14,800 nt of DNA. Source: a virus. Taxonomy: Duplodnaviria > Heunggongvirae > Uroviricota > Caudoviricetes. The first letter of the stretch is position 1. Each line of letters starts with the position of its first letter. Both the position numbers and the translations under genes were made by a program. The stretch lies in the IMG/VR virus record IMGVR_UViG_2526164631_000021, one strand, 5' to 3'. Below, one piece after another: positions 11,382 to 11,480 of the stretch. The notes beneath the pieces were generated by a model. That model searched no databases. It had not been told where the DNA came from and saw only the letters and a program-made list of their open reading frames with translations.

Positions 11382-11480
11382 TGCACAATAGTGCACAAAT
11401 TTGCACAATTTTTTTGAACGACTTTTTGCCCTTCCGGCCCGCGTGGCGGCTGGATCCGTCAAGGATCCGTGCGTGCACAA
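11382..11480. repeat. helically phased TGCACAA repeats (three copies at 10-bp spacing plus a fourth ~70 bp downstream)
   Basis: TGCACAA at ~11382, ~11392, ~11402 and ~11474. A GGATCCGT direct repeat pair also sits at ~11452 and ~11463. The region is non-coding and lies between the cargo operon and the portal gene, where cos is expected in a P2-type layout. Confidence 0.5.

What the first reader, a model, noticed from the sequence alone, without database searches (positions are those of the whole stretch)
11382..11480. Helically phased TGCACAA repeats next to the cargo terminator in the cos-proximal region
Three TGCACAA copies at 10-bp spacing place the same sequence on one face of the helix, a pattern typical of cooperative protein binding sites such as terminase small-subunit or IHF-assisted packaging sites, or of a repressor array. 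A fourth copy and a GGATCCGT direct repeat pair follow. This region lies where cos and packaging recognition elements are expected, but I could not recognise the canonical P2 cohesive-end sequence.
Basis: seen in the sequence. Interest (0 to 1): 0.4.

Follow-up and report, generated by a model that had tools for sequence, protein, structure and literature searches.

The report
Phased repeats beside phage packaging site
The TGCACAA repeats are real and are the local version of a conserved four-site module at fixed distances from the DNA-packaging cut site (cos) of P2-family phages and their satellites, most likely read by the phage's packaging enzyme.

Summary
Observation confirmed. TGCACAA lies at 11382, 11392, 11402 and 11474. 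A phased triple 7-mer arises in 1 of 2000 shuffles. The window is a P88-type (Xuanwuvirus) P2-family prophage. Searching public viral contigs with that cos core alone, 70 of 83 distinct flanks carry YGCACRA at exactly -123/-113/-103/-31. The variable cargo ends exactly at repeat 1, and the 65-bp spacer diverges while its length stays fixed. P2, 186, PSP3, RSA1 and the satellite P4 have the same layout with the word TGCAT (-124/-111/-101/-29). A satellite-like E. coli island shares only repeat 1 through cos with P88-type phages. The word therefore changed at all four sites between lineages living in one host, and elements that share only packaging with their helpers keep it. That points to a phage-encoded packaging protein, most likely the small terminase gpM. 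ParR centromere, IHF site and terminator readings were tested and are disfavoured. No binding or cleavage data exist. The literature I could reach mentions only a 55-bp core containing the proximal site. Verdict: new variant of a known kind, moderate interest.

The parts
11352..11374 (+). Intrinsic terminator of the variable cargo operon. It belongs to the cargo, not to the conserved module.
   Evidence: 9-bp stem AAACGCCCT/AGGGCGTTT, -14.3 kcal/mol, z = -4.5. The sequence left of 11382 is unrelated among relatives (1.73 bit entropy).
11382..11388 (+). R1, distal repeat 1 (TGCACAA). It is the first base of the conserved backbone and marks the cargo junction.
   Evidence: Homology of most relatives starts at this base. 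At -123 from cos in 70/83 distinct flanks. Entropy 0.19 bit, with no filter applied to this site.
11392..11398 (+). R2, distal repeat 2 (TGCACAA)
   Evidence: At -113. Invariant G, C, C, A columns in 16 divergent flanks.
11402..11408 (+). R3, distal repeat 3 (TGCACAA)
   Evidence: At -103. The most conserved distal site. Its 3' end at -97 coincides with that of TGCAT at -101 in P2/186/P4.
11409..11415 (+). T7 run after R3 (possible intrinsic bend)
   Evidence: Nearly invariant T columns in the P88-type alignment. Absent from P2-type flanks.
11416..11473 (.). Spacer of conserved length and variable sequence. In this lineage it holds an imperfect GC dyad (11434-11453) and GGATCCGT x2 (11452-11470, two GATC sites).
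   Evidence: R3-to-R4 start spacing is 72 bp (+/-1) in nearly all flanks although 53/56 columns vary. The GGATCCGT pair is specific to the E. coli P88 type.
11474..11480 (+). R4, proximal repeat (TGCACAA), followed by an A-run to 11485. Equivalent of P2/186/P4 TGCATTAAAA.
   Evidence: At -31 in P88-type flanks. TGCAT at -29 in 97/101 P2-type flanks. Lies at the edge of the published 55-bp core by my counting.
11485..11503 (.). Short GC hairpin between R4 and cos (ACGCGC...GCGCGT)
   Evidence: -7.7 kcal/mol, z = -0.9. P2 has an analogous CCGCCCCgtgaaGCGGGCGG, but the dyad is weak or absent in other P88-type lineages.
11505..11523 (+). Candidate 19-nt cohesive-end sequence (cos nicking region), GGTGACGGGGGAACAGCCC
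   Evidence: 13/19 identical to P2 GGCGAGGCGGGGAAAGCAC in the homologous position between cargo and portal. Similarity to Novemvirus phiT5282H ends right after it. L253 has an intermediate form. Exact nick positions were not determined.
11524..11541 (+). Left-end flank of cos shared with the satellite-like island (GCGTTTCAGGGGGTAAAT)
   Evidence: Homology between the island and P88-type prophages extends about 20-40 bp past cos.
11782..11806 (.). Strong bidirectional hairpin after the portal gene (equivalent of P2 tQ). It marks the right part of the conserved non-coding block.
   Evidence: -21.5 kcal/mol, z = -6.5. P2 annotates tQ in the same place.
11833..12879 (-). Portal gene (gpQ homologue), whose 3' end faces cos
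   Evidence: ORF list and RefSeq annotation of the identical prophage.

Best explanation
The three phased TGCACAA copies (R1-R3) and the fourth copy (R4) form the right-end arm of this phage's cos packaging signal. They are four same-orientation recognition sites at fixed distances (-123, -113, -103, -31) from the nicking site at 11505. I infer that a phage-encoded packaging protein reads them, most probably an oligomer of the small terminase gpM. R4 would anchor the enzyme about 2.5 helical turns from the cut. The distal triplet, on one helical face and a fixed 72 bp away, would add cooperative contacts by wrapping or looping the DNA. That would raise the affinity and specificity with which the large subunit gpP is placed on cos. 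The word (TGCACAA here, TGCAT in P2/186/P4) would set packaging specificity, as R sites do for lambda versus 21. Shown here: conservation, fixed geometry, the word switch, retention in satellites, and the cargo boundary. Inferred: the identity of the binding protein, cooperativity, and whether the array acts at initiation or termination.
For: (1) Searching with the cos core only, 70/83 distinct flanks have YGCACRA at -123/-113/-103/-31 and the rest differ by 1 bp or one degenerate copy. (2) In 16 divergent flanks from several genera, invariant columns fall in R1-R4 and cos, with one in the 65-bp spacer and none left of R1. Entropy is 0.03-0.19 bit in the repeats, 0.80 in the spacer and 1.73 on the cargo side. 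(3) P2, 186, PSP3 and P4 have TGCAT at -123/-124 (PSP3 -120), -111, -101 and -29, and RSA1 at -129, -110, about -100 and -29. In 101 distinct P2-type flanks TGCAT is at -29 in 97, -101 in 72, -111 in 62 and -124 in 43. (4) The words are exclusive: 3.8 TGCAC against 0.05 TGCAT per P88-type flank, the reverse for the P2 type, and about 0.05 of either on the other side of cos. (5) Satellites keep the array: P4-like elements have all four sites in 17/18 flanks. An island with no portal, terminase or tail genes shares only R1 through cos plus 20-40 bp with P88-type phages and has TGCACAA x3 plus R4. (6) The two lineages share E. coli as host, so a host protein would not explain the word change. gpM is a PF05944 small terminase only 37% identical to P2 gpM. 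(7) Longer P4 cos flanks raised cosmid transduction by more than 1000-fold (PMC9594776). (8) In lambda, TerS binds three R sites in a 120-bp cosB and R-site differences set specificity (PMC4669245).
Against: There are no binding, footprint or cleavage data for any P2-family phage in what I could read. The literature describes a 55-bp conserved core (cited in PMC5694545 and PMC9594776) that would hold R4 but not R1-R3, so the distal triplet may be an enhancer rather than essential. In P2-type phages the distal sites are less strictly kept (all four in 31/80 flanks). One P88-type contig (L129) has lost R3 and the spacer through R2/R4 recombination, and its viability is unknown. Which genome end is packaged first is not known to me, so cosB-like (initiation) and cosQ-like (termination) roles cannot be separated. 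Many compared sequences are close relatives, so the counts overstate independent events. R2-R4 and cos conservation is partly built in by my filters; R1, the spacing and the word switch are not. The cos position is inferred by homology only.
Confidence: 0.65

Rival explanations
1. The sites are read by the terminase but act at the end of packaging, or in setting nick accuracy from the last-packaged end (a cosQ-like role), rather than as the initial recognition site.
For: The array lies on the right-end side of cos, next to the last genes of the map. In lambda, cosB lies on the first-packaged side and cosQ on the other (PMC4669245). If P2-family packaging runs left to right, this arm is the terminal one.
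Against: P2 packaging direction could not be established from the papers available. P2 is generally described as packaging monomeric circles (my own knowledge, not checked here), so both arms would be present at initiation. Lambda cosQ is a single 7-bp site, not a four-site array spanning 100 bp.
Confidence: 0.15
2. The repeats bind a host architectural protein (IHF, Fis or HU) that bends cos DNA for the terminase.
For: Lambda cosB uses IHF. The phiCTX record annotates an IHF site near its cos. A and T runs flank R3 and R4.
Against: No IHF consensus lies within one mismatch in 11376-11530. The word differs between P2/186 and P88-type phages that share E. coli as host, and changed at all four sites together. 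HP1 and phiCTX repeat quite different words.
Confidence: 0.06
3. The repeats are the centromere (parC) of the phage's ParM/ParR partition system.
For: The phage encodes ParM and ParR (StbA/StbB families). Type II centromeres are arrays of short phased direct repeats (my own knowledge).
Against: The array is 1.7 kb downstream of parR, beyond the variable cargo. It is present in phiT5282H, the satellite island, P2, 186 and P4, none of which has ParMR nearby. parM has its own candidate centromere immediately upstream, a 42-nt palindrome-containing repeat at 8264 and 8337.
Confidence: 0.02
4. R2-R3 plus the T-run form a transcription terminator or insulator that keeps cargo read-through off cos.
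For: The consensus scan flags GTGCACAAATTTGCAC followed by T7 as terminator-like.
Against: The fold is weak and not better than shuffles (-6.8 kcal/mol, z = -1.2, 23/200). A strong terminator already sits just upstream. P2-type arrays have no T-run. R1 and R4 would be left unexplained.
Confidence: 0.04
5. The conserved words have no binding role and are simply the homology anchor at which cargo cassettes are exchanged by recombination next to cos.
For: The cargo junction is exactly at R1. Rousset et al. propose that cos-proximal recombination drives hotspot turnover (PMC9122126). L129 shows recombination between repeat copies.
Against: A passive anchor would not keep four short words invariant while the DNA between them diverges and its length stays fixed. 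It would not switch the word at all four sites, and it would not persist in P4, whose hotspot lies on the other side of cos.
Confidence: 0.06

Closest known systems
P2/186/P4 cos site (55-bp conserved core, Ziermann & Calendar 1990, as cited in PMC5694545 and PMC9594776)
   Same: Same genome position (between the gpA-side cargo hotspot and the 3' end of the portal gene). Related 19-nt end sequence (13/19). Same proximal TGCAY + A-run element 24 bp before the nick. Same distal triplet positions.
   Different: The word is TGCACAA instead of TGCAT at all four sites, and the cos sequence differs at 6 of 19 positions. Triplet spacing is a strict 10/10 bp instead of about 13/10. A T7 run follows R3. 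The distal triplet lies outside the 55-bp core, and I could not find it described. I could not read the 1990 paper itself.
Lambda cosB (R3-I1-R2-R1, bound by TerS gpNu1 with IHF; PMC4669245)
   Same: An arm of about 120 bp beside the nicking site. One proximal and several distal repeats of one word. Lineage-specific words that would set packaging specificity (lambda versus 21; here P2 type versus P88 type).
   Different: All four sites are in the same orientation, whereas lambda R2 is inverted. There is no IHF consensus. The triplet is tightly phased at 10 bp. The arm is on the right-end side of the map. The TerS family is different (PF05944). Binding has not been demonstrated.
Repeats annotated around cos of Pseudomonas phage phiCTX (record NC_003278: R3-R6 repeats, IHF site)
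   Same: A P2-family phage with repeated words in the last ~130 bp before cos (GCAGAAA at -82, -36, -27).
   Different: A different word and different positions, and an IHF site is annotated. The record gives no function.
SPP1-type pac site with multiple TerS boxes flanking the cut (as summarised in PMC4669245)
   Same: Several TerS sites spread over about 100 bp, with DNA proposed to wrap around a TerS ring.
   Different: That is a headful phage with an imprecise cut. Here the cut is a precise cos.

Membership tests
P2-family cos site | 19-nt cohesive-end sequence related to GGCGAGGCGGGGAAAGCAC / GGCGTGGCGGGGAAAGCAT | tested here: met
   GGTGACGGGGGAACAGCCC at 11505-11523 is 13/19 identical to P2. 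L253 gives an intermediate form at 15/19.
P2-family cos site | Location between the gpA-side accessory genes and the 3' end of the portal gene | tested here: met
   Replication gene at 5508-8330, cargo to 11341, cos at 11505, portal at 11833-12879 on the minus strand.
P2-family cos site | Conserved core flank on the right-end side (TGCATTAAAACC... about 29 bp before the nick) | tested here: met
   GTGCACAAAAAAACG lies at -32 to -18. The motif 3' end is at -25 in both lineages.
P2-family cos site | Cleavage by gpM/gpP terminase giving 19-nt 5' overhangs | not testable with these tools
   No virion-end data were found for any P88-type phage. Record LR595891 is linearised elsewhere.
Lambda-type cosB | Several copies of one word beside the nick site that are bound by the small terminase | tested here: inconclusive
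   The repeats and their conservation are shown. Binding could not be tested, and no solved relative of gpM exists.
Lambda-type cosB | IHF site between the proximal and distal R sites | tested here: not met
   No WATCAANNNNTTR within one mismatch in 11376-11530 on either strand.
Lambda-type cosB | R2 inverted relative to R3 and R1 | tested here: not met
   All four copies are on the + strand.
Type II partition centromere (parC) | Repeat array adjacent to and co-inherited with parMR | tested here: not met
   The array is 1.7 kb from parR across variable cargo and is present in elements without ParMR. A separate repeat pair sits just upstream of parM.
Intrinsic terminator | Stable GC-rich hairpin followed by a U-run | tested here: not met
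   R2-R3 hairpin is -6.8 kcal/mol with z = -1.2.
Known RNA families | Match to an Rfam model | tested here: not met
   No hit at E <= 1 in 11300-11900.

The most novel reading that the evidence does not exclude
The four-site arm (distal phased triplet plus proximal site, fixed 72-bp gap) is a previously undescribed part of the functional cos throughout the P2 family, and its word is a packaging-specificity code. TGCAT elements (P2, 186, P4) and TGCACAA elements (P88-type phages and the capsid-encoding gcd-hpt island) would then form separate helper-satellite packaging groups. The word would predict which helper can mobilise which satellite, and swapping it would retarget P2/P4-based transduction vectors.
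Probability: 0.35. Interest if true: 0.65.

Novelty: new variant of a known kind. Interest (0 to 1): 0.5.

Why it matters
P2-like prophages and P4-like satellites are among the commonest mobile elements of enterobacteria, and their cos-adjacent hotspots carry many defence systems. How the P2-family terminase recognises DNA is poorly defined: the papers I could reach cite only a 55-bp core. A defined, lineage-specific four-site arm would give a concrete target for gpM binding studies. It would explain why the cargo hotspot ends exactly where it does. It would offer a sequence rule for which satellites a given helper can package. It may also explain why longer cos fragments raise the yield of P2/P4 cosmid delivery vectors by orders of magnitude.

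Tried and rejected
(1) The genome-contig scan with the 16-mer cos core returned almost only chance hits in GC-rich genomes.

(2) I first took the start of record LR595891 (window about 11427) for a possible cos end. Its two ends join between R3 and the GC dyad, so it is an arbitrary linearisation.

(3) From BLAST I first judged P2's three upstream TGCAT copies to be cargo-specific. Positional analysis showed them to be conserved short words that BLAST cannot see.

(4) No P4-like satellite carries the P88-type cos among 115 IMG/VR loci. E. coli genomes hold no large hidden set either (1151 against 1147 records), though one satellite-like island family was found.

(5) Ziermann & Calendar 1990 and the Christie & Calendar review are not held. 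The supplement of PMC9594776 has no cosmid sequences. PMC9942202, PMC12239096, PMC7617512, PMC13100340 and PMC4856287 gave no detail on cos substructure.

(7) The ParR centromere, IHF, terminator and RNA readings were tested and set aside.

Full report
**1. The observation.** TGCACAA is present at 11382, 11392, 11402 and 11474, all on the + strand. The total count of the word in the window (7 against 3.7 expected) is unremarkable. The phased triplet is the only 7-mer in the window repeated three times at equal 9-12 bp spacing, and only 1 of 2000 dinucleotide-preserving shuffles produced any such triplet. GGATCCGT is repeated at 11452 and 11463.

**2. Context.** The window is 100% identical to a prophage of E. 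coli FDAARGOS_1059 and belongs to the P88-type (Xuanwuvirus) branch of the P2 family. The gene order is:
- integrase, then early genes
- replication endonuclease (5508-8330)
- ParM/ParR (8407-9682, Pfam StbA/StbB)
- small cargo ORFs, to 11341
- 490 bp of non-coding DNA
- portal (11833-12879, minus strand) and large terminase

This is the gpA-gpQ interval that Rousset et al. describe as a cos-adjacent hotspot of P2-like phages (PMC9122126). In most of about 1150 E. coli genomes and in phage records, homology to the window begins exactly at 11382, the first base of repeat 1. In strain JJ2434 the conserved non-coding block is also separated from the portal gene by an extra ORF. Variable DNA therefore flanks the block on both sides.

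**3. Locating cos.** P2 ends with ...GGTGCATTAAAACCGCCCCGTGAAGCGGGCG followed by the cohesive end GGCGAGGCGGGGAAAGCAC. The window has the same order: GTGCACAAAAAAA, a short GC hairpin, then GGTGACGGGGGAACAGCCC at 11505-11523, which is 13/19 identical to P2 cos. The Novemvirus phage phiT5282H matches the window from the repeats to this 19-mer and is unrelated immediately after it. A third lineage (E. coli ES1 prophage) has the intermediate GGTGACGGGGGGAAAGCCC. I therefore place cos at 11505-11523. This is by homology, and the nick positions were not measured. Record LR595891 starts at about 11427, but its ends join inside the spacer, so it says nothing about cos.

**4. An unbiased conservation test.** I searched IMG/VR with the cos core alone (GGTGACGGGGGAACAG). 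After removing five chance hits inside coding sequences, 104 loci had full flanks, giving 83 distinct 125-bp upstream sequences.
- In 70 of the 83, YGCACRA lies at exactly -123, -113, -103 and -31. All the others differ by 1 bp or have one degenerate copy.
- The 12 bp to the left of R1 differ completely from locus to locus.
- An alignment of 16 divergent flanks (E. coli, Enterobacter, Salmonella and other contigs) has invariant columns in R1 (GCA), R2, R3, R4 and cos, one invariant column in the spacer, and none left of R1.

| Region | Column entropy (bit) |
|---|---|
| R1 | 0.19 |
| R2 | 0.07 |
| R3 | 0.03 |
| R4 | 0.03 |
| Spacer | 0.80 |
| Cargo side, left of R1 | 1.73 |

The spacer varies at 53 of 56 columns, yet R3-to-R4 spacing stays at 72 +/- 1 bp.

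Caveats: cos invariance is by construction, and I filtered on GCAC near -30 and on a loose pattern at R2-R4 for the entropy table. The independent evidence is therefore R1, the spacing and the junction. Many loci are close relatives.

**5. The same architecture across the family.**

| Element | Repeated word | Positions before the first cos base |
|---|---|---|
| P2 | TGCAT | -123, -111, -101, -29 |
| P4 and 186 | TGCAT | -124, -111, -101, -29 |
| PSP3 | TGCAT | -120, -111, -101, -29 |
| Window (P88 type) | TGCACAA | -123, -113, -103, -31 |
| RSA1 (Ralstonia) | TGCAT | -129, -110, about -100, -29 |
| phiCTX | GCAGAAA | -82, -36, -27 |
| HP1 | CACGGAAA | -109, -45, -15 |

The first four rows are and the last three. 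The motif 3' ends coincide between lineages, at -97 and -25. Among 101 distinct flanks found with the P2/186 cos core, TGCAT is at -29 in 97, -101 in 72, -111 in 62 and -124 in 43, in otherwise unalignable spacers. The phiCTX record already annotates repeats and an IHF site around its cos.

The words are exclusive. P88-type flanks carry 3.8 TGCAC and 0.05 TGCAT per flank on the right-end side. P2-type flanks carry 3.5 TGCAT and 0.2 TGCAC. Both words are at about 0.05 per flank on the other side of cos. The window's repeats are thus the P88-lineage form of a family-wide module, with the word changed at all four sites.

**6. Satellites.** P4 shares with P2 essentially only the cos region (PMC9122126, PMC9594776), yet it has all four TGCAT sites. 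Among IMG/VR loci classified by P4 psu/sid/alpha hits, 17 of 18 distinct P4-like flanks have all four sites, against 31 of 80 for phages, where 64 of 80 have R4 plus at least two distal sites.

In E. coli mip270_22, a 12.5-kb island between gcd and hpt carries integrases, a toprim primase, an Ogr/Delta-like gene and a P2-family capsid gene, but no portal, terminase or tail genes. It carries TGCACAA x3 at 10-bp spacing, R4 and GGTGACGGGGGAACAGCA. Its similarity to P88-type prophages runs only from R1 to about 20-40 bp past cos. About 56 genomes hold this island. Elements that must borrow a helper's packaging machinery therefore keep exactly this segment.

**7. Mechanism.** Several steps lead to a phage-encoded packaging protein as the reader of the sites:
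- The sites sit at fixed distances from the cut.
- They changed together between lineages living in the same host.
- They are kept by satellites that share no regulators with their helpers.

The small terminase is the subunit that recognises DNA in other cos and pac phages. In lambda it binds three R sites in a 120-bp cosB, and R-site differences give more than 1000-fold specificity between lambda and 21 (PMC4669245). gpM of this phage is a PF05944 small terminase only 37% identical to P2 gpM.

I propose that a gpM oligomer contacts R4 (3' end 24 bp from the nick) and the phased R1-R3, with the 72-bp spacer wrapped or looped, and so positions gpP on cos. The same orientation of all four sites fits a ring or head-to-tail array better than a dimeric repressor. 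A report that longer P4 cos flanks raise cosmid transduction by more than 1000-fold agrees with a functional signal larger than the 55-bp core, but no sequences were available to check which elements differed (PMC9594776).

Not shown: binding, cooperativity, and whether the arm acts at initiation or termination. I could not establish which end is packaged first.

**8. Rivals.**
- **ParR centromere.** The array occurs in elements without ParMR, and parM has its own palindrome-containing 42-nt repeats at 8264 and 8337.
- **IHF or another host factor.** There is no consensus site, and the word switches between lineages within one host.
- **Terminator.** The R2-R3 hairpin is no better than shuffles.
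- **RNA.** There is no Rfam match.
- **Passive recombination anchor.** This does not fit invariant words in a diverging spacer of fixed length, nor P4, whose hotspot is on the other side of cos.

**9. Novelty.** The kind is known: a cos site with terminase recognition repeats. The literature I could read describes only a 55-bp core for the P2 family. By my counting that spans about -29 to +26, so it includes R4 but not the triplet. I found no description of the distal triplet, its fixed spacing or the word switch, but I could not read Ziermann & Calendar 1990 or the phiCTX paper. I rate the finding a new variant of a known kind, of moderate interest, with clear experiments available.

Noticed in passing
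window 8264-8305 and 8337-8378: A 42-nt direct repeat (81% identical), each copy containing the palindrome ACGGGAyT..AATCCCGT. It straddles the end of the replication gene and ends 29 bp before parM. It is a good candidate for the centromere of the phage's ParM/ParR module, and a plasmid-type segregation system is an unusual feature for an integrating P2-like phage.
   Followed up: partly
L376 (E. coli mip270_22, NZ_CM132655 2727247-2739760); L254 3990-4170: A 12.5-kb island between gcd and hpt with two integrases, a toprim primase, an Icd-like gene, an Ogr/Delta-like gene and its own P2-family major capsid gene, but no portal, terminase or tail genes. It carries a P88-type cos with the TGCACAA array and is found in about 56 complete E. 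coli genomes. It looks like a capsid-encoding satellite of P88-type phages. I did not check whether it is already described.
   Followed up: partly
L001 12460-13065 (E. coli JJ2434): A second variable slot, between the left-end flank of cos and the portal stop codon, holds a 174-aa ORF in some relatives. Cargo insertion sites therefore bracket the conserved cos block on both sides.
   Followed up: no
L129 around 5500-5610; L080 first 70 bases: Two damaged cos regions among about 110 loci. L129 has lost 82 bp through recombination between R2 and R4 (the shared GTGCACAAA). L080 has an IS1 end abutting the first base of cos.
   Followed up: no
window 11452-11470: The GGATCCGT pair contains two GATC (Dam) sites. 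One GGATC at about -44 from cos is kept in most P88-type lineages, but not in P4 or 186. Dam methylation controls P1 pac cleavage (my own knowledge), so a role here is conceivable but untested.
   Followed up: no
window 11483-11489 and 11523-11529: The inverted repeat AAACGCG / CGCGTTT brackets the candidate cohesive-end sequence, with 33 nt between the arms.
   Followed up: no
LR595891.1 (L002, L004): The GenBank record of Xuanwuvirus P88_4B11 is linearised inside the cos arm, between R3 and the GC dyad, not at the cohesive ends. Its coordinates should not be taken as physical genome ends.
   Followed up: yes
window 11524-11832: About 310 bp between cos and the portal stop is conserved among E. 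coli P88-type phages but unrelated in the Enterobacter/Novemvirus lineage. It contains a 14-nt inverted repeat (11584-11612) and ends in a strong bidirectional hairpin (11782-11806). Its function was not examined.
   Followed up: no
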